A DNA stretch of 60,443 bases from Candidatus Woesearchaeota archaeon (lineage in GTDB: Archaea > Nanobdellota > Nanobdellia > Woesearchaeales > UBA9642). Of the stretch, positions 3,775 to 45,652 are shown one piece after another (position 1 is the stretch's first letter; every line of letters begins with the position of its first letter). The notes under the pieces are model-generated. The model had not been told where the DNA came from, did not search any database, and was given only the letters and a program-made list of their open reading frames with translations. The position numbers and the translations under genes were made by a program. The stretch spans positions 1 to 60,443 of the forward strand of contig JAWANI010000003.1 in assembly GCA_038895475.1 (NCBI GenBank), in the 5' to 3' direction.

Positions 3775-3910
3775 ACACAAACAAAATAATGCTATATTTA
3801 TATAATTAACCATAAATCAATCAAATCAAAATACAACATTATAGTATTATCAAATTACAAAGACAATAAATACATAAAGAATATAAATGAATAGAATATA
3901 CACATACAAG

Positions 3911-5194
3911 ATGGGCATTTTAGATTATTTTAAAAAAAAAGAACCTGAAAAAACTCCAAAAATAATAGAATTGAGCAAGATAGATAAACATCTAAATCTT
4001 TTACTAAGAGAAAAATTATCATCTAAAAATAAAACAATACAACAAACAATAGAAGAAATAGAAAACATAAAAAACAACACAGAAATAAAACTTAAAGAGT
4101 TACACAAAAAAAAACTTATAAACCCAAACATACCATTAAGAGAAATACAGATAATGGAAGGAAACAGAGATAATTACATAAAAAATACAAAAAACTTTCT
4201 AAAAGAAATAAATATTCCACAACAATATCTACAAATATACGAATACACAGTAGAAATACTGGAAAAACTTGAAAATCTTTCAAAAACAAACCAAAAAAGC
4301 CATTTCATTCTAAAAGGTTTTTTCGATAATGAAATAAAAGAGATAAATAAAAATTTAAAAGATATCGAGGAAAAAATAACACAGATAAGAATATTGTTTG
4401 AAAAACAAAAAATTAGTACAATAAAAGAAATATATGAAGATGTAGAAAAAATAAAAAAGAACTATATTAAAATAAAACACATAGAACATGAAATAAAAGA
4501 AAACGAGGCTGTAATAAAAGAATATGAGGATAAAATAAAAAAAATAAATGAAAAGATAGAAACAATAAAAACAGGAACAGACTACAGGACACTGGAAAAT
4601 TTCAAACAGGAAAAAGAAAAAACAGAAACAGAAATAAAAAAAATATTCCAAGATTTTGACTCAAAATTTACAGAAATCCAGTATGCACTAAAAAAATTTT
4701 ACTATAAAAACCCCGATAAAAAAATAATAAAAAACTATATTGAAGAACCTTATAAAACATTGATAAATGATGATCAAAAACAGATAATAAACATAATAAA
4801 AGACTTAAAAGAAGATATAGAAAATATAGACCTAAAAGAAAGAAAAAAAGAAACAATAATAGAATACTTAAACAAACTTACACCCGAATATATCGATGAA
4901 ACACAACTCAAACTAAAAAAACTAGAAGACTTAAAACAGGATATACAAGCAAAAATAATACACAATTCATCCTCATTAAACATATCGGAACAGGAATATT
5001 GGATAAAAACAAACAAGGAAAAAATAAATATACATACTGAAAAAATACTAAAACTAGAAGAAGACAATTTAAGATTAAACGGAGAAAACACATTACTTAA
5101 AAAGAAAATAAAAAAAGATTTAGAATTATTAGTATACGAAGAAGTAACTATTATAGATGATTTAAGGGAATTGTTTGAAAACAAAGAACATTAA
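3911..5194 (+). CDS. Long Lys/Glu/Ile-rich coiled-coil protein with MGILDYFKKKE N-terminus
   Basis: Continuous heptad-like K/E/I/N composition over about 427 aa. An alternative upstream ATG is at 3887. No enzymatic motif. Confidence 0.6.
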   Translation: MGILDYFKKKEPEKTPKIIELSKIDKHLNLLLREKLSSKNKTIQQTIEEIENIKNNTEIKLKELHKKKLINPNIPLREIQIMEGNRDNYIKNTKNFLKEINIPQQYLQIYEYTVEILEKLENLSKTNQKSHFILKGFFDNEIKEINKNLKDIEEKITQIRILFEKQKISTIKEIYEDVEKIKKNYIKIKHIEHEIKENEAVIKEYEDKIKKINEKIETIKTGTDYRTLENFKQEKEKTETEIKKIFQDFDSKFTEIQYALKKFYYKNPDKKIIKNYIEEPYKTLINDDQKQIINIIKDLKEDIENIDLKERKKETIIEYLNKLTPEYIDETQLKLKKLEDLKQDIQAKIIHNSSSLNISEQEYWIKTNKEKINIHTEKILKLEEDNLRLNGENTLLKKKIKKDLELLVYEEVTIIDDLRELFENKEH

Positions 5195-11689: not shown

Positions 11690-13651
11690 TTATTTGTTTT
11701 TAACTTCATTGGAAATAAACATCCACCATGGTCCTTTTACTCTTATAATTTCACCGTTTTCTGCGTTTAAAATCATTTCCTGCTTTGCGGTTATAGGAAT
11801 TATACCCAGTATTCTTCTTTTAGAATCAACCTTAACTAAATATTTTAAACCATCATCTGTATTTTCTAAAATTATTTGTCTTACATTTTTGTTTTCTAAA
11901 TTCTTTGGAATAACTATTGCTGTGCCATTAATAGTTATATTACTGTTGTTTATTAATAATTGTGGGACTTTTATTTTTAACAAACCTTTTCTAATAAACA
12001 CCTGATTATTTTCCTTAGAAACAACAACATTCTCGCCATTAACCATTGTCTCTATTTCTGCATTCTGAATATTAGAAGCCGTTTCCCCTATTGAAACATC
12101 ATCGGGCGTTACACTAACTTCATCTACAATTCCTGAAAAATCATTTAAATTAAGTCTTTGTCTCTCTCTAAGATAATCTTTTATAGCATCTTCTGCCTCT
12201 ATACGCAACTCCCTTATTCTATAATCATCGGCTGTTTCAGACAATACCTCTGCCATTAACAAAGAATAATAATCAGATATCTGAGATGAATTTGTACTGT
12301 TGTCTATTGGCAATCTATTACATCTTGCTTTTATCAATATTATGTTTCTTTCTAAATTATCTATCTTCTTTTTAATATCTCTCAATTGTTCGTCTGATGC
12401 CTGCATAGATTTTAATAATGCATTATATTGTTTATATAAAGACTCCAGTTCTTTTAACATTTCTTCTGGTATTACACATCTTGCTGTGCCTGTTTGTCCT
12501 GGAACAGTATTTTGCATACACTTCTTTTTATATTCATCAATCTTTTTGCCTATTTCTGCAATCTTATTCCTTATTGGCGTTAAATCGACATCATTCGGAG
12601 AGTTAAGCAGTTCTCTGTACTCTTTTAAAGCATCGGATAATTCCCTGTTTAGATATTCCGGAATCTGACATCTCACACCTATTCCTATCTCCCTATCACA
12701 TTGTCTTGATTGCTGTCGCATTATTTCGCCTAATCTTAAAATCTTCACCCTTAAATCAGTAACATCAACTTCTCTTGATCTATCACTTAATTTCTGACGA
12801 AGCTGTCTTATCAAATCAGAATATTCTTTCAAAGTAGTAGGATCTACACACCTATAATTTATATCAAAAATAACATCAGAAACAGATATATTTGTGGTAT
12901 TTGTGATATTAAATGTGTTTGTATTGTTTGTTGTATTATTTATAGTATTATTTATTATAGTATTATTTGTAGAATTAAATCTGGTTATACATTCGAATTT
13001 AGGATTACAATTTGCATCATATCTTACAATGATTCTACCTTTTTTCTCTTCACATGCACTTTCAACATTCTCAGGTACATCATAAACAGGACAACCAACA
13101 AAAGGAACAATATCTGCAGAATTAGTTACGCACTCAAAAGTTGCTTCACACTTTTCATTATATAAAACATTAAGAGTTCCTCCTCTTGCAGCACAATCAT
13201 TAACAACATCCAATGCCGGTTTTACAGGAGGACAAGATACACCTGATTTACATTCATCAACATACCTTGCAGACATATATACTGATTCAACACACTCATA
13301 GCCAACAACACAATTATTTTGTAATTTTTTCTTAACAATCATTCCTTTATTATGACATTCATTACAAAAAATATTGCTTGGAGGGGCAATATCTAATGCA
13401 CAATAATTTCGTGAAGAACCACTTTGTAAAGATTCACAATCATAACCAACAACACAACCATCTCTTACAATATTAACTAACACCAATCCCTGTTGTTCAC
13501 ATTTTTCCCATAAATCTTTATCTGGCAAAGGCAAAGATTTACATAAAACATTGCCTCCAGCATCATAATCAGAAGCATTTAATGCGTTCACATAAAACAA
13601 AATAGAATATAAACTAAAAACAAATACAAACAACAATAATATTTTTTTCAT
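11690..13651 (-). CDS. Secreted Cys-repeat / coiled-repeat surface protein with PepSY-like C-terminus
   Basis: Signal peptide, four Cys modules ending C(V)VGY(D/E)CES or (T/K)FEC(V/I)T, an Asn/Thr-rich N-x-T linker, three roughly 50-aa helical repeats bounded by Cys, and a C-terminal ...VKGPWW segment. Confidence 0.7.
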   Translation of the reverse strand: MKKILLLFVFVFSLYSILFYVNALNASDYDAGGNVLCKSLPLPDKDLWEKCEQQGLVLVNIVRDGCVVGYDCESLQSGSSRNYCALDIAPPSNIFCNECHNKGMIVKKKLQNNCVVGYECVESVYMSARYVDECKSGVSCPPVKPALDVVNDCAARGGTLNVLYNEKCEATFECVTNSADIVPFVGCPVYDVPENVESACEEKKGRIIVRYDANCNPKFECITRFNSTNNTIINNTINNTTNNTNTFNITNTTNISVSDVIFDINYRCVDPTTLKEYSDLIRQLRQKLSDRSREVDVTDLRVKILRLGEIMRQQSRQCDREIGIGVRCQIPEYLNRELSDALKEYRELLNSPNDVDLTPIRNKIAEIGKKIDEYKKKCMQNTVPGQTGTARCVIPEEMLKELESLYKQYNALLKSMQASDEQLRDIKKKIDNLERNIILIKARCNRLPIDNSTNSSQISDYYSLLMAEVLSETADDYRIRELRIEAEDAIKDYLRERQRLNLNDFSGIVDEVSVTPDDVSIGETASNIQNAEIETMVNGENVVVSKENNQVFIRKGLLKIKVPQLLINNSNITINGTAIVIPKNLENKNVRQIILENTDDGLKYLVKVDSKRRILGIIPITAKQEMILNAENGEIIRVKGPWWMFISNEVKNK

Positions 13652-13741: not shown

Positions 13742-14482
13742 TTAGTCGTTCTCTTCTATTCTTGGCGCTAAAATAAAAATCATTTGTATTTTGTCTATCT
13801 CTTTATATTCCAATTTTAAAGGATAGTCTTTGCTGAAGGAGATCTCTACATTATTGCTTATTTTTGATGCCTGAATCATTTTTTTAAGATATTCTATTGA
13901 ATATTTTGATTTAACCTTTTCCTCTGATTTTATTGCGACATTTTCGTCAGATTTTATTTCAATATTTGCTTTTTTTGAATCGCCAGAAGCCGATATTACA
14001 AATTTTTTATCTTCTGACTGAAAACTTACCGATTCAGATATTATTTCCACATCTTCTATAGCATCGTTAAGCATTGTTGATGGACATTTTACATGTGCTT
14101 TAAATTTTAATTCCGGTATTTTTTGCTCTCTTTCATCTAAATCTATTAATGGAAGAAAAAATGTTCTTACGCTATTCCCCTGTAATGTTAATTTTAATTT
14201 ATTCTCAGAAACTTCTAACACCAAATTATCGTTAGCTTTTATTCTTCTTAATACTTGTTTAAAGTCGTTTAAATTTAATCCTAAAACCGTTTCTTCTTTT
14301 ACATTATATTCTATAAATGAACTGCTTAATAGTCTGAAGACAACCATTGCGACATTTGCAGGATCCATTGCTATTAATTCCATGGAGTCCTTCTTTACTT
14401 TAAATCTTGCTTCATTGACAAGATCATTTATAATTGTAACAGGTTCTTTTATAAGTTTTGTTTCAGACAACACAAGTTTCAT
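13742..14482 (-). CDS. pcn: DNA polymerase sliding clamp PCNA
   Basis: 246 aa. N-terminal pattern ...IINDLVNEARFKVKKDSMELIAMDPANVAMVVFRL... and overall length are typical of archaeal PCNA. Confidence 0.85.
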   Translation of the reverse strand: MKLVLSETKLIKEPVTIINDLVNEARFKVKKDSMELIAMDPANVAMVVFRLLSSSFIEYNVKEETVLGLNLNDFKQVLRRIKANDNLVLEVSENKLKLTLQGNSVRTFFLPLIDLDEREQKIPELKFKAHVKCPSTMLNDAIEDVEIISESVSFQSEDKKFVISASGDSKKANIEIKSDENVAIKSEEKVKSKYSIEYLKKMIQASKISNNVEISFSKDYPLKLEYKEIDKIQMIFILAPRIEEND

Positions 14483-14607
14483 TTTAACACCCCAACACCA
14501 TTAATGATGATTCAAATTTTCTAATTAAATTTCTAATTTTTTATTATGATTATATATACCTTAAAACACAAAATATATCAAATATTAAAATATATCTGTT
14601 TAAAAAG

Positions 14608-17217
14608 TTAATCAAATAGGCTTAATGTTCCACCGCTTTTCAAAGGGTTTACATTCAATATTCTTTTTACTACTTCTATATTTTTTTCGCTTAAAAGTTT
14701 TTTATCTAATGAATATATTTTTTCCAGCCAATAATTTTTGTCCAAATAATTCCTTTCTAAAGCGTCTTTTATTAATTCATAAAATATTCTTTCAGGACCA
14801 TTATTTTTATATTTTTTAAAATTAAGATATATTTCAATATCGCCCATCTTTCCTATAATCCTGTCGTTTTTAAAATTTATATATTTAATTCTTCCCAAGG
14901 AGTATCCTGGAAAGTTTTCATTATTGCTGATAATATAGCTTTTAGACCTTGCTTCAAACTTATTTTTTAACAATAAATCCAGCATTTCAGAGTATTTGTT
15001 ATTTAATTTTAATATGCTGTAATCATATATTAATCCATTTATTCTTTCCCAGTTTACATTTCCTAGGTATTCCTGACTAAATATAAAGCTCGTATTTGAT
15101 AAATCTCTTTCAGACTTTCCATCCCTTAAAATATTGCTGAAATATATATCTCTTTGTCTTGACATGTCAGAAAGACTTTGATAAAAATCTTTAATATCAT
15201 ATTTTTCTCCAAACTTCAATCCGGCCATTTCCATGCAATCTCTTACTTTATCTATTGGAACAACTAATGCTGATGCAAGCTTCCATATTAAATCTGTTTT
15301 AACAACTATGTTTTTTTCAGAAATCATTTTATCGTATATAAAATTAAGAACAGGGTCTGAATTTATAATTTGTTTAAATGATTCTATGAATATGTTTGGA
15401 TAATATAATATTCCTTCACTAATACCATATTTTTGTTCTAAAGAAGATATTTTATCCAGCAGAATTGCATCAGGCCTTAATCTTGATTTTAATTTTTCCA
15501 AATGTCTCCTAGGGCTTTTCTCATGCCTATCTCTAAGCGTGTTTAATTTCATAAAGTATCTTCTCTTTCCTGCATCATAAAAATTTTTTACGGGGTCGGA
15601 ATTAAAAACAGAATTTAATGGTTTGTTGACAGCAAAACTCTCAACTATGGCGTTTCTTATTATTTTTAATACAAAATCCCTATTCTTTAAACCGTCGTTT
15701 ATTGTATATGTTACAACTTTTTCTAAACCTTCATACGTTCCTGATTTTATTAAAGATTTCATTTCATCATAATCAATGCTTTTTGTAAATCCTGCCAAAG
15801 TAGCCAATTTATGGTCTGATAAGATATTTAATCTTCTCTTAGAATACTCCTTTGTGTCCAGTATGTCATCAAGATTTTTTTCCCATATTTTTTTATGTGA
15901 ATTAAATTGTTTTAAATGGAGAAAATCAAATTCTATAAAATTATGACCTATTATCTTATAATACTTTTTTGAATCATCATTCAATTTTTTTACTAAGTCT
16001 ATCTCGTTTTCTACAAATTCAAAACTTACGTTTTTAAAACCGTTAATTAATTTTTTCCTGTAGTATTCAGACCTCCATGCTTCTGAAGTAATATATATTT
16101 TATTTTCACTTTCAGAATTTAACGTCGCCATAAATATTCTTCCAGAGGGTATTTTTCCGTTTATAAAATCAATAACTTCTAAATCAATAACTGCGGTGTT
16201 TTTTTTATAAAATTCGCTGCAATGCATCAATGCATCCTCAATATTAACACCATAAGATACATTTTTCAAATACAGAAACGGAAACAATCTGTAGTTCGGC
16301 TGAGACTTTAAAGGCAGATCAGGATTAAATGTTGAGTGTATCGGAAAAAAATCTCTTAATTGCTGTGAAACCCTGTTAAGCATCAACGGATCATATAGCA
16401 ATTGTATTGCATCTACTTCTTGAATTCCAGATTTTGTTTTTGGAAAAATTCCGAGGACATCTAATTTTGAAACAACTTCTGGTCTAGATGTAGCAGTCAC
16501 TTTTAAATAAAATTTTTCCTTCAAGGAAACATCGACAAATTTTACAATTTTTTTAATATCAATATTGCTTCTTAAAAAAGAGTCTTTAGAAATGTTTCTC
16601 AATAATAAACCATATAAAGATTCTGCCTTTTTTTCAGACGAAAAAATTTCTGAAGCGTAAACATTTATTCTAAAAATATTTTTGTTTAGTCTCTTTAATG
16701 TCTTATAATCGCACAGAACCTCTATATTTGAAAAATTAAAGTTTATATCTTCAGAAGACACAGTGTTATTTAGATCTTCTATTATTTTTTCCAGTTCAGA
16801 AACTTCGCGAGTCTCATATGTTCTTGCACGATATCTTTTTTCAGGATTCCTGAAAAATATTTGTTTGCCACTGACAAAAAATTCCAGATTTTTTGCATCC
16901 TCTCGGTTTCCTTTGTGCCATATTATGAAAGAACTGTTTGAATCTTTAGGAAGATCAAATTCTTTATTATTATTTACTCTGCATTTACCATAAGGCATTG
17001 CTTGAAAAACATGTCCGGGATACTTCTCCGTGAGCTTCACAATTAATTCTTTCGGAGTAATGTTATGTTTCGAAGGAATTATCTCCCTTGTAACGGTTAT
17101 TCTCCAAAAATCATCTATTTTTGTTCTTAAAACATAGTCTTCAGTATTGAAATACTCAACCAAAACTTTTTGTCCCTTAAGCCCTAAAGGTTTTATATTT
17201 AGTATGTAGTTTTCCAT
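14608..17217 (-). CDS. Family-B DNA polymerase-like protein with intact exonuclease motifs and degenerate polymerase motifs
   Basis: AVIDLEV (Exo I), IGHNFIEFDFLHL (Exo II), YTINDGL (Exo III). SEGILYYPNIF aligns to motif A DFxSLYPSII without the Asp. No canonical KxxxNSxYG or YxDTD. C-terminal ...GGTLSLFD. Confidence 0.6.
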   Translation of the reverse strand: MENYILNIKPLGLKGQKVLVEYFNTEDYVLRTKIDDFWRITVTREIIPSKHNITPKELIVKLTEKYPGHVFQAMPYGKCRVNNNKEFDLPKDSNSSFIIWHKGNREDAKNLEFFVSGKQIFFRNPEKRYRARTYETREVSELEKIIEDLNNTVSSEDINFNFSNIEVLCDYKTLKRLNKNIFRINVYASEIFSSEKKAESLYGLLLRNISKDSFLRSNIDIKKIVKFVDVSLKEKFYLKVTATSRPEVVSKLDVLGIFPKTKSGIQEVDAIQLLYDPLMLNRVSQQLRDFFPIHSTFNPDLPLKSQPNYRLFPFLYLKNVSYGVNIEDALMHCSEFYKKNTAVIDLEVIDFINGKIPSGRIFMATLNSESENKIYITSEAWRSEYYRKKLINGFKNVSFEFVENEIDLVKKLNDDSKKYYKIIGHNFIEFDFLHLKQFNSHKKIWEKNLDDILDTKEYSKRRLNILSDHKLATLAGFTKSIDYDEMKSLIKSGTYEGLEKVVTYTINDGLKNRDFVLKIIRNAIVESFAVNKPLNSVFNSDPVKNFYDAGKRRYFMKLNTLRDRHEKSPRRHLEKLKSRLRPDAILLDKISSLEQKYGISEGILYYPNIFIESFKQIINSDPVLNFIYDKMISEKNIVVKTDLIWKLASALVVPIDKVRDCMEMAGLKFGEKYDIKDFYQSLSDMSRQRDIYFSNILRDGKSERDLSNTSFIFSQEYLGNVNWERINGLIYDYSILKLNNKYSEMLDLLLKNKFEARSKSYIISNNENFPGYSLGRIKYINFKNDRIIGKMGDIEIYLNFKKYKNNGPERIFYELIKDALERNYLDKNYWLEKIYSLDKKLLSEKNIEVVKRILNVNPLKSGGTLSLFD

Positions 17218-17411
17218 ATGTCTTTGAGGTAATTTGTATATATTTAAAAAATTAACCGATAACTACTACAAAGTAACTTATTAGTAAAAAACGTAATAAT
17301 ATAATGACACATGGAAAACAAAATTTAAAAAACAACCCTTATTAAAGAATAAATAAAAATAAAAAAAGACAAAAATAAATACGATAAAAAAATAATAAAC
17401 AAAAATTAAAA

Positions 17412-19169
17412 ATGAAAGAAGTGTGGAATTTAAATGAATTGGTTAATAAAAAACCTGAAAATATATTAGAGGAAATAAAAAAAGATGTTGAATCATTCAT
17501 AAGATATAAATCAATTATTCATAAAAACAATAAAGACATAATAGATACTGTATTTAAAATAATTCTTCTAAAAGAAAAAATGTATGAAAAACTGATGCTT
17601 CTTAATGGGTATTATTCCTTAAGATTTTATGAAAATACGAAAGACGAAGAGGCATCGGCAAAAATATCTATGCTAAAACAATTAGGCACTGAAATAAATA
17701 ATAAAACGCTTTTCTTCTCACACTGGATAATGAAATTAGATGAAAAAACATATAAAAAAATAATAAACTCAGAAAAACTAAAATCATTTAAACATTATTT
17801 TGAAAAAACAAGAAATCTTAAAAAACATACACTATCAGAAGATAAAGAACAAATAATAAACCTAAAAAACATAGCCTCTTCGGGCTTTTTCGATATATAT
17901 GAACATATAACAAGTTCTTTTACGTTTGATTTCGAAGGCAAAAAAATCACTGAGGAAGAATTAAAAACAAAATGCAGGTCTCCTGATCCCGAAGTCAGGG
18001 AAAAAGCATATATTCTTTTGTTATCTAAATATGAATCTCATAAATCAGAATTAACAGAAATATACAGAAATATAGTTCTTGACTGGTATAATGAAGACAT
18101 ACTAATAAGAAAATATAAACGACCAATAAGTTCAAGAAACATTAGTAATGACTTAAAAGATAAAACCATTGATTCATTAATCAATGTTATTAAAAAAAAT
18201 AATCATGTATTTCAGGAATATTTTAAGGTAAAACATGAAATAATAAACAATAAGCTCCCAAAAAATAAAAGATATGAATTTTCAAGATTTCATCTTTATG
18301 CACCATATGTTTTTAAATCTAAAAAATACAGCTATGAGTTTAGCAAAAAGTATGTATTACAAAAATTTAAGGATTTCGACAAAAGATTCTACGATGCTGC
18401 AAATCTAATATTTAAAAATAAACACATACACAGTCACCCGCAAAAAAACAAAAGAAGCGGAGCATTCTGTAGTTTAATAACAAACAAGCATCTCCCATAC
18501 ATAATGCTTAATCATACTGACGATATAAGAGATTTGTTTACAATGGCACACGAACTTGGACACGGCATACATGATGTTTTAAGTATGAATCAACCAAATC
18601 TATTACAACATGCACCACTCCCATTATGTGAAACAGCATCTATATTCTCTGAAATGATATTAGCTGATGACATATTAAAAAAATCAGACAATATTGAAGA
18701 AAAAAAATACGTTTTAATGAACTTGTTAGATAATCAGTATGCATCAATAACCAGACAGGCATATTTTGTAATATTTGAAATATATGCACACGACAATATG
18801 CACAAGGGGATAACAATAAAAGATTTAGACGATATGTATTTAAAACTGTTAAAAGAACAATTCGGAAACATGAAAATTCCCGAAATATTCAAGAATGAAT
18901 GGAATTATATACCGCACATTCATGAATATCCTTTTTATTGTTATTCATACGCTTTCGGGAATCTTATGGTTTTATCCTTATATGAGATTTACAGAAGAGA
19001 AGGCAAAAAATTCGTAGACAAATATGTAAATATTCTCAGCAAGGGTGGATCTCAAAATCCTGAGGAAATGTTTTTAGGAATAGGCATAGATATAACATCT
19101 GAAGATTTCTGGCAGAAGGGCTTTGAAATAATTAAAGAAGAAGTCAAAAAACTAAAAAACATGAATTAA
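17412..19169 (+). CDS. pepF: Oligoendopeptidase F (M3B metallopeptidase)
   Basis: 585 aa with HELGHGIH zinc motif and M3B-like length and architecture. Confidence 0.85.
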   Translation: MKEVWNLNELVNKKPENILEEIKKDVESFIRYKSIIHKNNKDIIDTVFKIILLKEKMYEKLMLLNGYYSLRFYENTKDEEASAKISMLKQLGTEINNKTLFFSHWIMKLDEKTYKKIINSEKLKSFKHYFEKTRNLKKHTLSEDKEQIINLKNIASSGFFDIYEHITSSFTFDFEGKKITEEELKTKCRSPDPEVREKAYILLLSKYESHKSELTEIYRNIVLDWYNEDILIRKYKRPISSRNISNDLKDKTIDSLINVIKKNNHVFQEYFKVKHEIINNKLPKNKRYEFSRFHLYAPYVFKSKKYSYEFSKKYVLQKFKDFDKRFYDAANLIFKNKHIHSHPQKNKRSGAFCSLITNKHLPYIMLNHTDDIRDLFTMAHELGHGIHDVLSMNQPNLLQHAPLPLCETASIFSEMILADDILKKSDNIEEKKYVLMNLLDNQYASITRQAYFVIFEIYAHDNMHKGITIKDLDDMYLKLLKEQFGNMKIPEIFKNEWNYIPHIHEYPFYCYSYAFGNLMVLSLYEIYRREGKKFVDKYVNILSKGGSQNPEEMFLGIGIDITSEDFWQKGFEIIKEEVKKLKNMN

Positions 19170-19869: not shown

Positions 19870-21186
19870 TTATTTAAAAGCCATTTTCTGCCCGTTTTTT
19901 AGCAAGAATACGTTTTTATTTTCCCTATAATTTAACTCTTCTGCAAGCTCTAAAAATTGTTCTGCAGTAGCTATCTCAGAATGTGCAGGTATAAGATTTT
20001 TTGGTTTAATCAAATTAATTAAATCTCTTGCATCCTCCCTTGCTCCATGACCTGAAACATGTATATCCCTAAATATGCGCACTTTCTTCTTTTTCAATTC
20101 AGACTCCATCAATTCCCTGTTTTTTATATTTTCCTCACCAGGAATTATGTTACATGAAAATATTACAATATCTTCTTTTTTAAAATGAAAGTAATTATTA
20201 AATATCATTCTTGCAAGCACTGATTTTGGTTCGCCTTGGTGTCCTGTGACTACAAAAACGTAATCTTCGGGATTCTTGCATTTTTTAAGAAAATTTTGCA
20301 CCTGCTGGCGATACTTTATTACTTTTGAGCTTTTTGAAAAGGATATTGCCTTAATGTTTTCCCCTGCACGGATATATTTTTCTAAGCTTCTCCCTAAAAA
20401 AACAACTTTCCTGTTTAACTGTTTTGAAAACTCCATAATGCTTTTCAATCTTGCCAAATGGCTTGAAAATGTGCTCACTATAATTGCTTTTCCATTACTA
20501 TTAGTAGATATCATTACCTCTCTTAGTAATTCTCTTGCAACTGATTCAGAAGGTGTTTTAATTGCCTTATTTGCATATAATGAATCCATTATCATTATCT
20601 TCACTTCTTTAAGCTGTGATAATCTTCCAAGATTTGATTTGCTCCCCAATGTCGGCTGATTGTCTATTTTAAAATCATTGGCATATACTAATTTTCCATA
20701 TTTTGTATGAACAATAATTATTGCGGCATGTATAACCGAATGTGTTACACTTACAAATTCTATTTTAATATTTTCAGAAACCTTAAAAACACTGTTTATC
20801 TCATGAACCACTAATTTATTTGGGAGTTTAATGTTTTTGTCTTCTAAAATTACTTTTAAAACCTCTATTGTATAGGGTGTTCCGTGTATAGGACAATCAA
20901 ATTCTTGTGCGAGAAATGGTGCTGCACCTACATGATCAAGGTGTGCATGACTTATACATATTGCTTTAACTTTAGGGATCCATTCTGTAATAATGCTTAT
21001 ATCAGGAATTGCTTCTATTTCAGTTAATGTTTCTAAAGAAACATCAGCATCATCATCCTGAGTATATTTTATATAATTTTGCAAATGCAGACCCATATCA
21101 AGAATTATTACTTCATCATCAACTTTTATAGCAGTACAATTTTTGCCTACTTCCCTATAACCGCCTATTGGCATTATCTCTATCAT
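19870..21186 (-). CDS. rnj: Archaeal RNase J (beta-CASP metallo-beta-lactamase ribonuclease)
   Basis: HAHLDHVGA (HxHxDH) motif and beta-CASP region; 438 aa, typical of archaeal RNase J. Confidence 0.85.
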   Translation of the reverse strand: MIEIMPIGGYREVGKNCTAIKVDDEVIILDMGLHLQNYIKYTQDDDADVSLETLTEIEAIPDISIITEWIPKVKAICISHAHLDHVGAAPFLAQEFDCPIHGTPYTIEVLKVILEDKNIKLPNKLVVHEINSVFKVSENIKIEFVSVTHSVIHAAIIIVHTKYGKLVYANDFKIDNQPTLGSKSNLGRLSQLKEVKIMIMDSLYANKAIKTPSESVARELLREVMISTNSNGKAIIVSTFSSHLARLKSIMEFSKQLNRKVVFLGRSLEKYIRAGENIKAISFSKSSKVIKYRQQVQNFLKKCKNPEDYVFVVTGHQGEPKSVLARMIFNNYFHFKKEDIVIFSCNIIPGEENIKNRELMESELKKKKVRIFRDIHVSGHGAREDARDLINLIKPKNLIPAHSEIATAEQFLELAEELNYRENKNVFLLKNGQKMAFK

Positions 21187-25608: not shown

Positions 25609-27282
25609 ATGCTTGTTAAAAATTTTTTTAGATTAAAAAAATTGTATAAATCTAAAATCAATTATTTGAATAAATTAAAAAAAATAATGTTCGCTTTCTT
25701 TTATATATTTTTAATTTTTTTAACAATAAAATCCGCATATTCTATAAAATTTAATGAAATAATGCCCAATCCATTAGGAAGCGATGTCGGAAGAGAGTGG
25801 ATAGAGCTTTCAAACCCGTATTGTGAAGATGTTTCGAAAATAAAATTATTCGAAAACAACATAAACCACAACATAGTTCTGTACAGAAATGGAAGTTGTG
25901 ATTATCCGATAATTTGTAATGATTGTTCAAAACTTGTTTCTGAATACAATATTTTCTCCCAACTATATGAAAGCTCATTCACTCTCAACAATAATGGGGA
26001 ATATGTTGCATTAAAATATGGAGAAATAACACTGGACTGGATAAATTATAGCGTGGTTCCTGAAGGATATTCATTAACAAAATATGATGAATGGATAACT
26101 ACGACACCTACACCAGGATATCATTTGGAATATGTGCTTCTGTTTAATATAACCAATGCAACACAAAATAGCACATACAACAACACATTAATATTGAATA
26201 ATACAGAAACACAAAACAATACAGAAACATCAAATAATACATATATATTAAATAATACGGACTTTATGAATCAAACTGACATCTATAATATAACCAACAG
26301 CACACCTATTCCGGACACAATAAATGAAACAAATAATACACAAAATAAAACCATAAACATATCAGATGATGTAAAAATATGCAATATAAGCATCGGTATT
26401 AAACTTAAAGAAGAAAAACAAATATATGAAAACAAAGAATCTATTAAATTCTATAACACACTTAACATCACGCCATACTACAAATCCAATTTTTCAATAG
26501 AGTACTGGGTCGAGGATTTGTATGGGACTATTTTAAAAAGCAAAATTCAGACAACAAATCTTAATGAAAAAACCTTTACACCAAACATAAAAGAAAAAGT
26601 TTCTGCAATAATCATAAAAAATAATTTAATAAATATAGAAAGTAATTGTTCAGAAAATATACTTAATGATGGTGCAGAAAAAATATTAATAATAAAAAAT
26701 CCGTACTATGAAGAAAAAAAGTGTGAGGTGGCAGAAACAAATGTTCAGGGCAAGGATGAAAGCAAAAATTCTTTAGAAACATCTTTTATTGATACGAAAA
26801 TAGATGAAAAAAACATAATCGTAAATGCATATAGGGGAAATGATAGAAAGTACTCAGTAAATATTCAGATTAAAAACAATCAAAATAAAAAAACAACAGA
26901 AATAAAATTATATTTGGAAAAAAACTCTTTTACAGAATTGTTTTTCCCATTAAAAAATCTTGAATGTGGAAATTATACCATAACAACAGAAGGATTAGGC
27001 TATAAAACAACTGAATATTATAATGAACCATGTGCAGATACCGAAGTCACATCTAAAGGCAACTCTGCTAAAAATTTTACATTAAAACCCTCAAATAACT
27101 TAAACAGCACAAAATTCAACAGCACCGGATTAGATGCAAAATTTTATAATTCACCAATAACAGGCAAAACAGTCTATGCCTCAAGAAATGAACAAACAAA
27201 AAAATATAGTCTAATAGGCATAATTATAATTTTCTCATCCACTATAACTTATTTTTCATACAAATATTTATTCAAAAAATAA
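25609..27282 (+). CDS. Surface protein with lamin-tail domain (LTD), Asn-rich sequon region and C-terminal TM anchor
   Basis: FNEIMPNPLGSDVGREWIELSNP LTD signature, dense N-x-T/S repeats, C-terminal hydrophobic helix plus basic tail. The start may be the internal ATG at 25687. Confidence 0.7.
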   Translation: MLVKNFFRLKKLYKSKINYLNKLKKIMFAFFYIFLIFLTIKSAYSIKFNEIMPNPLGSDVGREWIELSNPYCEDVSKIKLFENNINHNIVLYRNGSCDYPIICNDCSKLVSEYNIFSQLYESSFTLNNNGEYVALKYGEITLDWINYSVVPEGYSLTKYDEWITTTPTPGYHLEYVLLFNITNATQNSTYNNTLILNNTETQNNTETSNNTYILNNTDFMNQTDIYNITNSTPIPDTINETNNTQNKTINISDDVKICNISIGIKLKEEKQIYENKESIKFYNTLNITPYYKSNFSIEYWVEDLYGTILKSKIQTTNLNEKTFTPNIKEKVSAIIIKNNLINIESNCSENILNDGAEKILIIKNPYYEEKKCEVAETNVQGKDESKNSLETSFIDTKIDEKNIIVNAYRGNDRKYSVNIQIKNNQNKKTTEIKLYLEKNSFTELFFPLKNLECGNYTITTEGLGYKTTEYYNEPCADTEVTSKGNSAKNFTLKPSNNLNSTKFNSTGLDAKFYNSPITGKTVYASRNEQTKKYSLIGIIIIFSSTITYFSYKYLFKK

Positions 27283-43339: not shown

Positions 43340-45652
43340 ATGCCTGAAACATTACAAAAAGTGATAACAATAACTGATTTTACACCTAAACCGGAGCATA
43401 AGATGTATCTTAAAGATTTCCAGCCCAGGCTGTATCAAGAAGCAATATTTAATACATGCACTAAACATAATACATTAGTAATATTACCTACAGGAATTGG
43501 AAAAACAGCGATATTTCTTATGATGGCGGCATATAGGCTTAATTTATATCCGAAAAGCAAGATTCTACTTTTGGGACCTACAAGACCTTTAATTGAACAA
43601 TATTATGCAGTATTTAAAAAATATTTTAACATAGAAGAAAACAAAATGAGCGTTTTTACAGGATTTGTAAGTCCTGAAAAAAGGCAGGAATTATGGAACA
43701 ATTCACAAATAATCTTCTCAACACCGCAAGGATTAGAAAACGACATAATGTCAAATCGAATATCATTAAATGATGTTTCACTAATAGGTTTTGATGAATG
43801 CCATAGAAGCGTAGGCGATTACAGTTATAATTTTATCGCAAAACAATATATGAAAAAAGCAATTCATCCTAGAATAATAGGATTAACAGCAAGCCCCGGT
43901 TCAGACAACGAAAAAATACAAGAAGTATGTCAAAATTTATTCATAGAAAAAATAGAAATAAGAACAACAAAAGATAAAGATGTAATGCCTTACGTTCAGG
44001 AAGTTGTTACAGAAAAAATATTTGTAGAACTTCCAGATAAATTAAAAGAGATTAAAACATATTTTGATAATGCGACAAAATCAAGATTGAAAGAACTAAA
44101 AAATTATGGTCTAACAACAGAATCAATAATTAACTCTAAAAAAAATATTCTTGCTGCACAAGCATCATTACATGCAAAAATAGCAAAAGGCGAAAAGGAT
44201 TTTGAAACACTAAAAAGTTTAAGTCTTATTGCGGAAATAATCAAAATATTACATGCACTTGAACTTTTAGAAACACAAGGGGTTTCTCCATTAAAAGAAT
44301 ATTTAGAAAAACTAAATCAAGAAGCAAATTCCGGAAAAACAAAAGCATCACAAAACATTGTTAAAGATATTAATTTCAAAGCAGCATATTATAAGTTAAA
44401 AGAAATTAATGAAATAGAACATCCAAAACTTGAAGAGTTAAAAAAAATAGTTAAAGAAGAACTTAAAGATTTAAACAAAAAGATAATAATATTCTCGCAA
44501 TACAGGGATTCCGGGAATAAAATAACAGAAACAATAAACAATCTCGGATTTAAAGCAAAATTATTTGTTGGACAAGCAAAGAAAAAAGAAACAGGATTAT
44601 CACAAAAAAAACAAAAAGAAATATTAGAACAATTCTCAAAATCCGAGTTTAATGTTTTAGTGTCAAGTTCTGTCGGAGAGGAAGGTTTGGATGTTCCACA
44701 GGTTGATTTAGTTATATTTTATGAGCCGATACCTAGTGCAATAAGAAAAATACAGAGAAGCGGAAGAACAGGCAGATTATCGAAAGGAAAAATAATCATG
44801 CTTATAACAAAAAATACTATGGACGAAGTATATTATCATGTTGCAAGAAACAAAGAAAGAAAAATGTATGATGCAATAAAAACGATAAAAAACACCCCTG
44901 CATTAAATAATTTCATGAACAATACAGAATATAATAAAGAAAATAATAAAATAAAAACATTAAATGATTATTCTCTAAACGATCATTCTTCAAATGAAAA
45001 CAATTTAGAAAACACTTTAAAAATAGTTGCAGATTACAGGGAAAAAGGGTCTCCTGTATTAAAAGAATTAATAAATAAAAACATTACTTTAAATCTTGAG
45101 AAACTTTCAATAGGGGATTTTTTATTAAGCAGTAAAGTCGTCGTAGAATATAAAACAGTTTCTGATTTCGTTGATTCTATAATTGATGGAAGAATGCTTT
45201 CACAGCTAAAAGAACTGAAAAAATATGAAAAACCATTAATAATAATAGAAGGAACAGAAGATATTTATATGATGAGAAAGATACATCCTAATGCAATAAG
45301 AGGAATGCTTGTAACCATTACAATATCTTACGGAATTCCTTTAATTCAAACAAAAAACCACAAGGAAACGGCAGAATTATTATTGTTAATAGCAAAAAAA
45401 GAACAATTGGAAGAAAAATCCGATATAACATACCATTTTGCCAAGCCTTTAACATTAAAAGAACAACAAGAATACTTTATATCTGCATTACCAAACATAG
45501 GAATAGGTGGTGCAAGACCATTATTAAAACATTTCAAAACAATAAAAAACATAGTGAATGCTTCTGAAAAAGAGCTACAAGAAGTAGACTTAATTGGCCC
45601 GAAAAAAGCAAAAACATTGAAAGACCTATTTAATGAAAATTATGAAACATAA
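43340..45652 (+). CDS. hef: Hef (helicase-associated endonuclease for fork-structured DNA; XPF/FANCM-like)
   Basis: PTGIGKT (motif I), DECH (motif II), QRSGRTGR (motif VI), ERCC4 nuclease region (VADYRE...GDFLLSS...VEYKTVSDF), C-terminal HhH2. Confidence 0.9.
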   Translation: MPETLQKVITITDFTPKPEHKMYLKDFQPRLYQEAIFNTCTKHNTLVILPTGIGKTAIFLMMAAYRLNLYPKSKILLLGPTRPLIEQYYAVFKKYFNIEENKMSVFTGFVSPEKRQELWNNSQIIFSTPQGLENDIMSNRISLNDVSLIGFDECHRSVGDYSYNFIAKQYMKKAIHPRIIGLTASPGSDNEKIQEVCQNLFIEKIEIRTTKDKDVMPYVQEVVTEKIFVELPDKLKEIKTYFDNATKSRLKELKNYGLTTESIINSKKNILAAQASLHAKIAKGEKDFETLKSLSLIAEIIKILHALELLETQGVSPLKEYLEKLNQEANSGKTKASQNIVKDINFKAAYYKLKEINEIEHPKLEELKKIVKEELKDLNKKIIIFSQYRDSGNKITETINNLGFKAKLFVGQAKKKETGLSQKKQKEILEQFSKSEFNVLVSSSVGEEGLDVPQVDLVIFYEPIPSAIRKIQRSGRTGRLSKGKIIMLITKNTMDEVYYHVARNKERKMYDAIKTIKNTPALNNFMNNTEYNKENNKIKTLNDYSLNDHSSNENNLENTLKIVADYREKGSPVLKELINKNITLNLEKLSIGDFLLSSKVVVEYKTVSDFVDSIIDGRMLSQLKELKKYEKPLIIIEGTEDIYMMRKIHPNAIRGMLVTITISYGIPLIQTKNHKETAELLLLIAKKEQLEEKSDITYHFAKPLTLKEQQEYFISALPNIGIGGARPLLKHFKTIKNIVNASEKELQEVDLIGPKKAKTLKDLFNENYET

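What the first reader, a model, noticed from the sequence alone, without database searches (positions are those of the whole stretch)
13742..17217. PolB-like protein with intact proofreading motifs but a degenerate polymerase active site, directly upstream of PCNA
The 869-aa ORF carries the three DEDDy exonuclease motifs in family-B order and spacing: AVIDLEV, IGHNFIEFDFLHL and YTINDGL, about 80 aa apart. About 98 aa after Exo III, SEGILYYPNIF aligns residue for residue with motif A (L-D-F-x-S-L-Y-P-S-I-I), but the metal-binding Asp position holds Glu. I cannot find a properly spaced KxxxNSxYG; there is only KQIINS 10 aa later. There is also no YxDTD. The best motif C candidates are SYIISNNEN or KMGDIEIY. 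About 340 aa precede Exo I, compared with about 130-140 in Pfu-type enzymes, and the region after the motif C candidates is short. The protein ends ...KSGGTLSLFD, which resembles a C-terminal PIP box without the Gln. The PCNA gene follows 125 bp downstream on the same strand. Inactivated archaeal PolBs are known, but as I recall they have lost the exonuclease residues too. An exonuclease-competent, polymerase-dead, PCNA-linked PolB would be a different thing: a clamp-tethered stand-alone proofreader or nuclease. The alternative is an extremely divergent replicase using Glu ligands.
Basis: partly seen in the sequence, partly recalled or inferred. Interest (0 to 1): 0.72.

Follow-up and report, generated by a model that had tools for sequence, protein, structure and literature searches.

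The report
Proofreading-only PolB relative beside PCNA
A small group of uncultivated archaea (Woesearchaeota/Nanoarchaeota) carries, usually right next to its sliding-clamp gene, a relative of the family B DNA polymerases that keeps every proofreading-nuclease residue but has lost the residues needed to make DNA, so it is probably a clamp-bound DNA-trimming enzyme rather than a polymerase.

Summary
An 869-aa ORF (14608-17217, minus strand) lies 125 bp upstream of a PCNA gene (13742-14482, minus strand). Pfam and NCBIfam find nothing in the ORF. A profile of its 34-cluster family, all from Woesearchaeota/Nanoarchaeota, matches Pfu/Tgo/KOD PolB from Exo I to motif A (E about 1e-9). A high-confidence AlphaFold model (pLDDT 90) returns only family B polymerases from PDB (Foldseek probability 1.0).

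Exo I (D345, E347), Exo II (N426, D431) and Exo III (Y504, D508) are conserved in every member that covers those columns, down to about 20% identity. The residue aligned to the motif A Asp (E601) varies: E, D, N, K, R, S, Q or H. No member has KxxxNSxYG or YxDTD, and no column after Exo III holds an invariant acid. The polymerase-like half is still conserved, so it is not decaying.

Most members end in ...G-T-L-x-L-F, a clamp-binding-like tail. PCNA lies directly downstream in 6 of 8 loci examined.

The most likely function is a PCNA-tethered 3'-5' exonuclease built on a dead PolB scaffold. This is inferred, not assayed. I found no description of it in the papers I searched. I rate it a new variant of a known kind. 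The genome's other polymerases could not be inventoried.

The parts
14608..17217 (-). Gene for the 869-aa PolB-derived protein. The exonuclease motifs are intact and the polymerase motifs are degenerate.
   Evidence: The ORF is listed. It has 8 close and 34 clustered homologues, all from Woesearchaeota/Nanoarchaeota. The family profile matches PolB structures at E=1.7e-9. The AF2 model has pLDDT 90, and the Foldseek top 50 are all family B polymerases.
16243..17217 (-). Long N-terminal region, residues 1-325. It is probably an enlarged PolB N-terminal domain.
   Evidence: It is confidently folded in the model and conserved in the family (31.8% mean pairwise identity in the core). It does not align to PolB by sequence. 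The only hint is weak: the poor first model, in which residues 130-270 were the main confidently folded stretch, matched Sso PolB1 and the Pol epsilon core.
15628..16242 (-). DEDDy 3'-5' exonuclease domain of family B type, residues about 326-530.
   Evidence: hhalign to Pfu PolB gives 96% probability and E=4e-9. hhalign to E. coli Pol II gives 93%. Distant members pass the Pfam PF03104 cut-off.
16174..16194 (-). Exo I, AVIDLEV (D345, E347).
   Evidence: It aligns to Pfu D141/E143. D and E are present in all 33 sequences that cover the column. Coordinates checked.
15913..15951 (-). Exo II, IGHNFIEFDFLHL (N426, D431).
   Evidence: It aligns to Pfu N210/D215. D431 is present in 32 of 32 sequences and N426 in 30 of 32.
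15688..15708 (-). Exo III, YTINDGL (Y504, D508).
   Evidence: It aligns to Pfu Y311/D315. Both residues are invariant in 34 of 34 sequences.
15520..15594 (-). The family's most conserved non-exonuclease block, PVKNFYDAGKRRYFMKLNTLRDRHE (residues 542-566). It corresponds to the second N-terminal-domain segment of PolB. It is probably a DNA-contact or structural element.
   Evidence: P542, Y554, T560 and H565 are invariant in the 23-member core, and R552 and R564 are present in 22 of 23. The 531-597 segment has the highest identity of any segment, 46% in the core. It aligns to Pfu residues about 345-370.
15385..15426 (-). Remnant of motif A, GISEGILYYPNIFI (residues 598-611). E601 stands where the catalytic Asp should be.
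   Evidence: HMMER and hhalign place E601 opposite Pfu D405 and Y606-P607 opposite Y410-P411. Column 601 reads E/D/N/K/R/S/Q/H. An alternative hhalign path deletes the Asp-bearing strand altogether.
15247..15300 (-). First helix of the fingers-like region, with K640 and D656-K657. There is no motif B.
   Evidence: The model has a long helix at 637-664. K640 is invariant in the core, and D656 and K657 are each present in 22 of 23 core members, but all three vary in distant members. No member has KxxxNSxYG.
15022..15051 (-). Putative equivalent of the motif C hairpin, WERINGLIYD (residues 723-732). The turn is N-G and there is no DTD.
   Evidence: The assignment rests on element order only: helix, hairpin, helix, then three strands, as in the Pfu palm. 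The supporting hhalign alignment is not significant. The turn columns are variable. D732 is D or E in 18 of 29 sequences. The hairpin is missing from the alignment in several distant members.
14611..14640 (-). Disordered C-terminal tail, KSGGTLSLFD. It resembles a PIP box or clamp-binding motif.
   Evidence: pLDDT is below 50 for residues 863-869. L867 is present in 20 of 20 and F868 in 17 of 20 core sequences. About 20 of the 34 members carry an LF within their last few residues. It is the only plausible window ORF with such a tail; the scan's only other hit was a hydrophobic 103-aa ORF.
14483..14607 (-). 125-bp intergenic spacer between the PolB-like gene and PCNA.
   Evidence: Sequence. A GGTG/GGGGTG run (Shine-Dalgarno-like) lies just upstream of the PCNA ATG. 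Co-transcription was not tested.
13742..14482 (-). PCNA sliding-clamp gene, 246 aa.
   Evidence: Pfam PCNA_N and PCNA_C match, and NCBIfam matches 'DNA polymerase sliding clamp' at about 200 bits. Orthologues lie directly downstream of the family gene in L001, L002, L003, L006 and L008.
17236..17250 (-). TATA-like box, TTTTTAAATATATAC, about 26 nt upstream of the ATG. It may be an archaeal promoter.
   Evidence: Sequence read directly. The genome is about 28% G+C, so such strings are common by chance. This is inference only.

Best explanation
The gene encodes a member of a family confined to Nanoarchaeota/Woesearchaeota that descends from a family B DNA polymerase. It keeps the whole PolB body plan: a large N-terminal domain, the exonuclease domain, and shrunken palm-, fingers- and thumb-like parts. 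It also keeps a complete DEDDy 3'-5' exonuclease active site. It has lost the motif A and motif C metal-binding carboxylates and the motif B dNTP-binding residues, so it most likely cannot polymerise.

The degenerate polymerase half is still under purifying selection and probably serves to hold primer-template DNA. The flexible C-terminal ...G-T-L-S-L-F tail probably docks on PCNA, whose gene usually lies immediately downstream.

The proposed function is a clamp-tethered exonuclease that trims 3' ends, whether mismatched, damaged or flapped, for polymerases working on the same clamp. That would make it an archaeal counterpart of the bacterial epsilon proofreading subunit.

Shown here: the homology, the pattern of residue conservation, the gene linkage and the taxonomic range. 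Inferred: exonuclease activity, lack of polymerase activity, PCNA binding and the cellular role.
For: Homology:
- The A2 family profile matches Pfu/Tgo/KOD PolB at E=1.7e-9.
- hhalign gives 96% against Pfu, 95.9% against an 11-sequence alignment of diverse PolBs and 92.9% against E. coli Pol II.
- Pfam DNA_pol_B_exo1 is passed by P0030, P0031 and P0038.
- The AF2 model has pLDDT 90 and pTM 0.86. All of the Foldseek top 50 in PDB are PolBs, with E down to 5.6e-14 and alignments of 760-1000 columns. The viral library also returns PolBs.

Exonuclease intact:
- D345, E347, N426, D431, Y504 and D508 are conserved across the family wherever the sequence covers them.
- So are D454, L471 and K479, which match the PolB-invariant D259, L275 and K287.

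Polymerase degenerate:
- Column 601 is variable.
- No member has motif B or a DTD at the motif C position.
- No column after Exo III holds an invariant acid, in either the default MAFFT or the L-INS-i alignment.
- No member hits PF00136.

Still under selection:
- Core pairwise identity is 31-35% in the palm- and fingers-like parts, against 41% in the exonuclease domain.

Clamp link:
- PCNA is directly downstream in the window, L001, L002, L003, L006 and L008. This includes a homologue only 24-25% identical.
- The terminal L-x-L-F is conserved and disordered.

Chromosomal rather than mobile:
- The neighbours are GyrA, Hef, RNase J, ScpB and aminoacyl-tRNA synthetases, and the synteny is shared with L003 and L006.
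Against: - There is no biochemical evidence of any kind.
- Model coordinates could not be exported, so I could not read by superposition which residues occupy the two catalytic Asp positions. The motif C assignment rests on the order of secondary-structure elements and on an alignment that is not significant (Prob 0.7%).
- Foldseek TM-scores are only 0.3-0.4, so PolB likeness of the C-terminal third is less certain than that of the exonuclease domain.
- In the window protein and its close relatives, an acid is present both at 601 (E or D in 5 of 8) and at 732 (D or E in 8 of 8). Residual catalysis in this subgroup is therefore not strictly excluded.
- The tail lacks the Gln and the second aromatic residue of a canonical PIP box.
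- Two of eight loci (L004 and L007) have no PCNA gene nearby.
- I could not check whether the same genomes carry PolD or a B7 PolB. This is assumed from the literature (PMC6355029, PMC7544198, PMC8204110).
Confidence: 0.55

Rival explanations
1. It is an exonuclease-active, polymerase-dead PolB derivative that works independently of PCNA. It could be a repair or end-processing nuclease, or it could act with the neighbouring RNase J in nucleic-acid turnover or primer removal. On this reading the adjacency to PCNA reflects shared regulation or chance.
For: L004 and L007 have no PCNA gene nearby. The tail is not a canonical PIP box. RNase J lies just upstream in 4 of 8 loci. The 125-bp spacer may carry PCNA's own start signals.
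Against: PCNA is adjacent in 6 of 8 loci, across homologues only 24-80% identical. The L-x-L-F motif sits at the extreme C-terminus and is disordered, which is the usual place and form of a clamp-binding peptide. Pfu PolB itself binds PCNA through its C-terminal tail, as seen in PDB 3a2f, which was the top sequence hit; this last point is from my own knowledge.
Confidence: 0.2
2. It is a non-catalytic replisome scaffold, like the inactivated C-terminal half of Pol epsilon or herpesvirus UL8. The exonuclease motifs would be retained for binding DNA ends or for folding, not for hydrolysis.
For: Inactivated PolB modules with structural roles are known (PMC2669801, PMC7544198, PMC8187027). The polymerase-like half is conserved although it lacks the catalytic residues.
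Against: In the known inactivated modules the exonuclease residues are lost too; in the B2 group Exo I is not conserved and Exo III is missing (PMC7544198). Here all six DEDDy residues are conserved down to about 20% identity, which is the signature of a working active site.
Confidence: 0.1
3. It is an extremely divergent but active DNA polymerase. It would use unconventional ligands, such as Glu601 with Asp732 or another acid, and could be the replicase of these reduced genomes.
For: E601 aligns with the motif A Asp. D732 is acidic in all 8 close homologues, and a low-confidence alignment places it opposite the second motif C Asp. Primer-independent PolBs work with only one motif C Asp (PMC7544198). 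The overall PolB fold is retained.
Against: Position 601 is N or K in 49-59% identical orthologues. It is non-acidic in 10 of the 23 core sequences and 16 of all 34. Position 732 is Y, S or N in several core members and is missing from the alignment in distant ones. There is no motif B and no conserved acid anywhere in the palm. The thumb-like part is short, about 65 aa by my own domain split of the model against 185 aa in Tgo. The literature reports PolD and a Pol II-like B7 PolB in this lineage (PMC6355029, PMC7544198, PMC8204110).
Confidence: 0.08
4. It is a decaying or mobile-element-derived PolB remnant from a casposon, pipolin or provirus, with no cellular role.
For: Many orphan PolBs in archaea come from mobile elements; this is from my own knowledge.
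Against: The ORF is full length and conserved across 34 clusters, with intact reading frames and a conserved N-terminus. It has a stable chromosomal neighbourhood of RNase J, PCNA, GyrA and Hef. Nothing resembling an integrase, Cas1 or a terminal protein turned up among the Pfam hits to the larger window ORFs. PHROGs and PADLOC give no meaningful hit.
Confidence: 0.02

Closest known systems
Archaeal family B replicative/repair polymerases of the Thermococcales type (Pfu, Tgo, KOD, 9°N; the best PDB matches)
   Same: The domain order is the same, and Exo I, II and III have the same spacing. The exo-domain invariants D259, L275 and K287 are shared. The Y-P of motif A is retained. The order of palm secondary-structure elements is similar. 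Both have a C-terminal clamp-binding tail at the extreme end.
   Different: There is no motif A Asp, no motif B and no motif C DTD. The N-terminal region is about 325 aa rather than about 130. The thumb-like part is about 65 aa rather than about 185. No Pfam PF00136 signal is present. Identity is only about 21% and is confined to the exonuclease half.
Inactivated archaeal PolB (B2 group) and other dead PolB modules (Pol epsilon C-terminal half, herpesvirus UL8)
   Same: They are PolB-fold proteins whose polymerase motifs are disrupted but which are kept by selection (PMC7544198, PMC2669801, PMC8187027).
   Different: Those modules have lost the exonuclease residues as well; in B2, Exo I is not conserved and Exo III is missing. 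Here the exonuclease site is fully conserved, which is the opposite pattern. B2 also keeps one motif C Asp and a D(K/R) motif, and I did not see either at that position here.
Stand-alone PolB-type exonucleases (Pfam PF10108 DNA_pol_B_exo2 / PF13482 RNase_H_2, YprB-like)
   Same: They have a DEDDy exonuclease of PolB type with no polymerase activity. Foldseek also finds such viral proteins at weaker scores.
   Different: Those are single-domain proteins of about 200-350 aa. This protein is 869 aa and keeps the N-terminal, palm-, fingers- and thumb-like parts of a polymerase. It also has a clamp-binding-like tail and a gene link to PCNA.
Bacterial DnaQ (epsilon), the clamp-tethered proofreading subunit that works in trans
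   Same: This is a functional analogy only: a DEDD exonuclease held at the replication fork through a short clamp-binding peptide, editing for a separate polymerase. The tail ...TLSLF resembles the bacterial QL[SD]LF clamp motif. Both points are from my own knowledge.
   Different: It belongs to a different branch of the DEDD superfamily. DnaQ is a small protein that binds the beta clamp and the Pol III alpha subunit. No homology beyond the superfamily level was tested or is claimed.

Membership tests
Family B DNA polymerase (homologous superfamily) | Significant profile or structural similarity to known PolBs | tested here: met
   hmmsearch gives E=1.7e-9 against Pfu PolB. hhalign gives 96%, 95.9% and 92.9%. 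Foldseek gives probability 1.0 and E=5.6e-14, with the top 50 all PolBs. TM-scores are only 0.3-0.4.
Family B DNA polymerase (homologous superfamily) | Exo I (DxE), Exo II (NxxxFD) and Exo III (YxxxD) in order | tested here: met
   D345/E347, N426/D431 and Y504/D508 align to Pfu D141/E143, N210/D215 and Y311/D315. They are conserved in every family sequence that covers them.
Family B DNA polymerase (homologous superfamily) | Pfam PF03104 (exonuclease domain) above the gathering score | tested here: inconclusive
   The window protein gives no hit at E<=1. The distant family members P0030, P0031 and P0038 pass, at 25-31 bits against a cut-off of 23.
Family B DNA polymerase (active enzyme) | Motif A, DxxSLYPS, with an invariant metal-binding Asp | tested here: not met
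   The aligned residue is E601. The column reads E/D/N/K/R/S/Q/H.
Family B DNA polymerase (active enzyme) | Motif B, KxxxNSxYG, in the fingers | tested here: not met
No conserved K...N...YG is found in the fingers-like helices.
Family B DNA polymerase (active enzyme) | Motif C, YxDTD, or at least one invariant Asp at the hairpin | tested here: not met
   No member has a DT[DE] or D[ST]D at the motif C position. The putative hairpin at 723-732 has a variable N-G turn, and D732 is acidic in only 18 of 29 sequences. The positional assignment is low confidence.
Family B DNA polymerase (active enzyme) | Pfam PF00136 (polymerase domain) | tested here: not met
   There is no hit in the window protein or in the 17 other family members scanned, even at E<=1 to 10. 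hhalign of the C-terminal half against the PolB palm, fingers and thumb gives Prob 0.7%.
Inactivated archaeal PolB, group B2 | Exo I not conserved and Exo III missing (PMC7544198) | tested here: not met
   Exo I and Exo III are invariant here, so this protein is not a B2-type member.
PCNA-interacting proteins with a PIP box | Q-x-x-[LIM]-x-x-[FY]-[FYW], typically at a disordered terminus | tested here: inconclusive
   In the tail K-S-G-G-T-L-S-L-F-D, the L and F positions are conserved (L867 in 20 of 20, F868 in 17 of 20 core sequences), and the tail is disordered in the model. Gln is present in only a few members, for example P0005 with SQGTLSLFD. The second aromatic residue is absent.
PCNA-interacting proteins with a PIP box | Physical binding to PCNA | not testable with these tools
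   Only gene adjacency could be scored: 6 of 8 loci. No complex prediction or assay was available.

The most novel reading that the evidence does not exclude
Nanoarchaeota would have converted a complete family B polymerase into a dedicated proofreader or 3'-end editor that rides on PCNA. It would act in trans for the lineage's other polymerases (PolD, or the bacterial-type B7 PolB). This would be the first archaeal equivalent of the bacterial epsilon subunit, and the first known PolB with the reverse inactivation pattern: exonuclease on, polymerase off.
Probability: 0.4. Interest if true: 0.8.

Novelty: new variant of a known kind. Interest (0 to 1): 0.62.

Why it matters
Every inactivated PolB module I found described, in the papers searched or from my own knowledge, has lost the exonuclease as well, or only the exonuclease: archaeal B2, the Pol epsilon C-terminal half, UL8, and the dead exonuclease domains of Pol alpha and Pol zeta. 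A family that keeps the exonuclease and discards the polymerase, while staying genetically tied to the sliding clamp, shows a different evolutionary outcome for a replicase.

It also suggests that some archaea separate proofreading or 3'-end trimming from synthesis, as bacteria do with epsilon. If so, this bears on how DPANN archaea with tiny genomes keep replication accurate. It would add an unannotated component to the archaeal replisome, since databases currently call it 'hypothetical protein'. It would also give a natural example of a polymerase fold reused purely as a DNA-holding scaffold for a nuclease.

Tried and rejected
- Direct Pfam, NCBIfam and PDB sequence searches with the single protein found nothing: no hit at all in Pfam or NCBIfam, and only chance antibody matches in PDB. 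Scanning the eight close homologues one by one against Pfam was also empty.
- The 8-sequence profile found nothing in PDB and gave a poor AF2 model, pLDDT 53. Only the 34-sequence alignment worked.
- I spent one large protein search on Pfu PolB to build a diverse PolB profile. It returned only Thermococcales sequences above 70% identity.
- A viral-contig scan with the PolB alignment A3 chose poor patterns and confirmed no relative of the query. I assembled a diverse PolB alignment from phage records instead.
- Re-searching with the family alignment added no members.
With A1 it found only 3 loci.
- hhalign of the C-terminal half alone against the PolB palm, fingers and thumb was not significant. 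I used it only for the order of elements.
- I could not obtain model coordinates, so no residue-level superposition was possible.
- I extended the window by 10 kb on each side. This found an RFC small subunit, Cdc48 and a 279-aa metallophosphatase, but no PolD or PolB.
- The supplements held for PMC7544198 had no Woesearchaeota table.
- I rejected a split-gene polymerase, because the model is a complete PolB-like body. I rejected a mobile-element origin, because the chromosomal synteny is conserved and nothing resembling an integrase turned up among the Pfam hits to the larger window ORFs. I rejected a defence system, because PADLOC gave no relevant hit.
- Descent from the lineage's bacterial-type B7/Pol II also looks unlikely. 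The family scores much better against archaeal PolBs (E about 1e-9) than against E. coli Pol II (E about 0.1).

Full report
**1. What is in the sequence**

On the minus strand, an 869-aa ORF occupies 14608-17217. A 246-aa ORF occupies 13742-14482, 125 bp downstream. The finding's coordinates cover both. The downstream gene is an ordinary archaeal PCNA: Pfam PCNA_N and PCNA_C match at 1e-14 to 1e-16, and NCBIfam matches 'DNA polymerase sliding clamp' at about 200 bits.

- AVIDLEV, residues 342-348
- IGHNFIEFDFLHL, residues 423-435
- YTINDGL, residues 504-510
- SEGILYYPNIF, from S600
- KQIINS, residues 615-620
- the C-terminus KSGGTLSLFD

The window is about 28% G+C. It looks like a normal DPANN chromosome: GyrA, Hef, RNase J, ScpB, both PheRS subunits, ProRS, a Pelota/aRF1-family protein, GAPDH and a copper ATPase. 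None of the larger ORFs I scanned is a polymerase.

**2. Is it a PolB relative?**

On its own the protein is invisible to Pfam, NCBIfam and a PDB sequence search. It has 8 close homologues. An exhaustive search found 34 clusters at 50% identity. Every named member comes from Woesearchaeota or Nanoarchaeota MAGs.

A profile of the 34-sequence alignment (A2) gave these results:
- It hits Pfu, Tgo, KOD and related PolB structures at E=1.7e-9 downward. The match runs from just after Exo I to motif A, Pfu residues 161-415.
- hhalign gives 96% against Pfu PolB.
- hhalign gives 95.9% against an 11-sequence alignment of diverse PolBs built from Thermococcales, E. coli Pol II and seven phage and halovirus enzymes.
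- hhalign gives 92.9% against E. coli Pol II alone, for the exonuclease domain only.
- Three distant family members pass Pfam's own threshold for DNA_pol_B_exo1.

With the 34-sequence alignment, AlphaFold2 gave a confident model (pLDDT 90, pTM 0.86). The 8-sequence alignment had given only pLDDT 53. Foldseek returned only family B polymerases among the top 50 PDB hits, with probability 1.0, E down to 5.6e-14 and alignments of 760-1000 columns. The top 12 named hits in the viral library were also PolBs.

TM-scores are low (0.3-0.4). This is expected when domains are oriented differently. It also means that PolB likeness is firmest for the exonuclease half.

**3. Which residues are conserved?**

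The alignment to Pfu pairs these residues:
- D345/E347 with D141/E143 (Exo I)
- N426/D431 with N210/D215 (Exo II)
- Y504/D508 with Y311/D315 (Exo III)

All six are conserved in every family sequence that covers those columns, down to about 20% identity to the window protein. The family also keeps D454, L471 and K479. These pair with D259, L275 and K287, which are invariant in my diverse PolB alignment. So this is a genuine family B exonuclease domain, not just a generic DEDD fold.

The polymerase half is different. HMMER and hhalign put E601 opposite the motif A Asp (Pfu D405), and Y606-P607 opposite Y410-P411. But column 601 reads E, E, E, D, N, K, D, N in the eight close homologues, and E/D/N/K/R/S/Q/H across the family. 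No family sequence has KxxxNSxYG, and none has a DTD at the motif C position.

After Exo III, no column carries an invariant acid, in either the default MAFFT alignment or an L-INS-i realignment. The best columns are 584, 656 and 703, where 79-89% of sequences have D or E, and none of them lies at a catalytic position.

The model's element order after motif A parallels the Pfu palm, fingers and thumb as I know them:
- a long helical pair (637-664 and 675-694)
- a helix (703-717)
- a short hairpin (723-726 and 729-732)
- a helix (734-752)
- three strands (771-782, 786-791, 794-798)
- a small helical bundle

On that mapping, the motif C hairpin is WERINGLIYD with an N-G turn. A permissive hhalign run gave the same order but is not significant (Prob 0.7%), so I treat this as a low-confidence assignment.

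D732 is acidic in 18 of 29 sequences. It is Y, S or N in several core members, and the hairpin is missing from the alignment in the most distant ones.

The polymerase-like half is not decaying. Mean pairwise identity in the 23-member core is 31-35% for the palm- and fingers-like parts and 46% for the 531-597 block (NFYDAGKRRYFMKLNTLRDRHE), against 41% for the exonuclease domain.

**4. The link to PCNA**

The last seven residues are disordered in the model. The terminal L and F are conserved: L867 in 20 of 20 and F868 in 17 of 20 core sequences. About 20 of the 34 members carry an LF within their last few residues, typically in the form ...K-S-K-G-T-L-x-L-F. This fits the L and first aromatic positions of a PIP box, but it lacks the Gln in most members and lacks the second aromatic. 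It also resembles the bacterial QL[SD]LF clamp motif, a point from my own knowledge. Apart from one hydrophobic 103-aa ORF that is probably spurious, no other window ORF ends this way.

A PCNA gene lies directly downstream, on the same strand, in six loci: the window, L001 (39% identical homologue), L002 (36%), L003 (24-25%), L006 (62%) and L008 (34%). It is absent from L004 and L007. Keeping this adjacency across such divergence argues for a functional tie.

**5. Mechanism**

I think the most likely reading is a PCNA-tethered 3'-5' exonuclease built on a catalytically dead PolB scaffold. The conserved N-terminal and palm/fingers remnants would hold the primer-template. The tail would hold the clamp. 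The DEDDy site would trim 3' ends for other polymerases on the same clamp.

The literature reports other polymerases in this lineage. PolD is widely distributed, including in DPANN (PMC6355029). Both PolD subunits are reported in Pacearchaeota (PMC8204110). A bacterial-type B7 PolB is reported in Woesearchaeota and Pacearchaeota (PMC7544198). I could not check this in the source genome, GCA_038894215.1. Ten kilobases beyond each window end showed an RFC small subunit, Cdc48 and a metallophosphatase, but no polymerase.

My estimates for the separate steps are:
- PolB descent, about 0.97
- exonuclease active, about 0.85
- polymerase inactive, about 0.85
- PCNA binding through the tail, about 0.6

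The rivals are a PCNA-independent nuclease (0.2), a pure scaffold (0.1), a divergent but active polymerase (0.08) and a mobile-element remnant (0.02).

**6. Comparison with what is known**

The protein is a homologue of family B polymerases, but it fails the tests that define an active member: motifs A, B and C, and Pfam PF00136.

It is not a B2-type inactivated PolB, because B2 has lost Exo I and Exo III (PMC7544198). The Pol epsilon C-terminal half and UL8 have lost both activities (PMC2669801, PMC8187027).

Small stand-alone PolB-type exonucleases exist (PF10108, PF13482), but they lack the polymerase body and any tie to the clamp.

Four literature searches found no description of a PolB with an intact exonuclease and a dead polymerase. 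NCBI labels members 'hypothetical protein' or, in one case, '3'-5' exonuclease'. I therefore rate it a new variant of a known kind.

**7. Limits**

- There is no biochemistry.
- The polymerase inventory of carrier genomes was not possible with the tools and caps available.
- Synteny statistics rest on only eight loci.

Noticed in passing
window 19870-21186 (-); L001 4089-5405; L006 6094-7410; L008 8598-9896: An RNase J (beta-CASP) gene lies just upstream of the PolB-like gene on the same strand in 4 of 8 loci. This gives a recurrent RNase J / PolB-like / PCNA neighbourhood. In the window and in L006, an M3 oligopeptidase (17412-19169, +) and a 193-aa ORF are inserted between the two genes.
   Followed up: partly
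L006 (CAZJFT010000001.1): The closest genome-collection homologue (62% identity, same RNase J / M3 peptidase / PCNA synteny) sits on a contig titled 'uncultured Methanosarcinales archaeon'. The contig is probably mis-binned or mislabelled and really comes from Woesearchaeota.
   Followed up: no
window 45709-46965 (+): A 418-aa ORF directly after Hef (43340-45652) has no Pfam hit. In L003 the gene in the same position after Hef has weak PriS/PriL primase hits, so this ORF may be a divergent fused primase. tblastn found no match between them, but the L003 gene is cut off by the end of the locus.
   Followed up: partly
window 11690-13651 (-): A 653-aa Cys-rich ORF lies immediately downstream of PCNA. 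It has a hydrophobic N-terminus, an Asn/Thr-rich low-complexity stretch and coiled-coil-like repeats. It was not scanned against any domain library. L006 holds a weak relative, 26% identical over the C-terminal third.
   Followed up: no
window 25609-27282 (+), 3887-5194 (+), and L018 1-1376: Several large ORFs have no Pfam domain: 557 aa and 435 aa in the window, and an 809-aa ORF just beyond the right end of the window next to an RFC small subunit. This is typical DPANN dark matter. The 809-aa ORF next to RFC may be worth checking as a replication factor.
   Followed up: no
L004 15363-16130: The genome of the distant family member P0038 also encodes a small stand-alone PolB-type exonuclease (PF13482 RNase_H_2, 255 aa). 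It lies about 3 kb downstream, beside a HhH-GPD glycosylase and a LigD_N-like gene, so this may be a small repair cluster.
   Followed up: no
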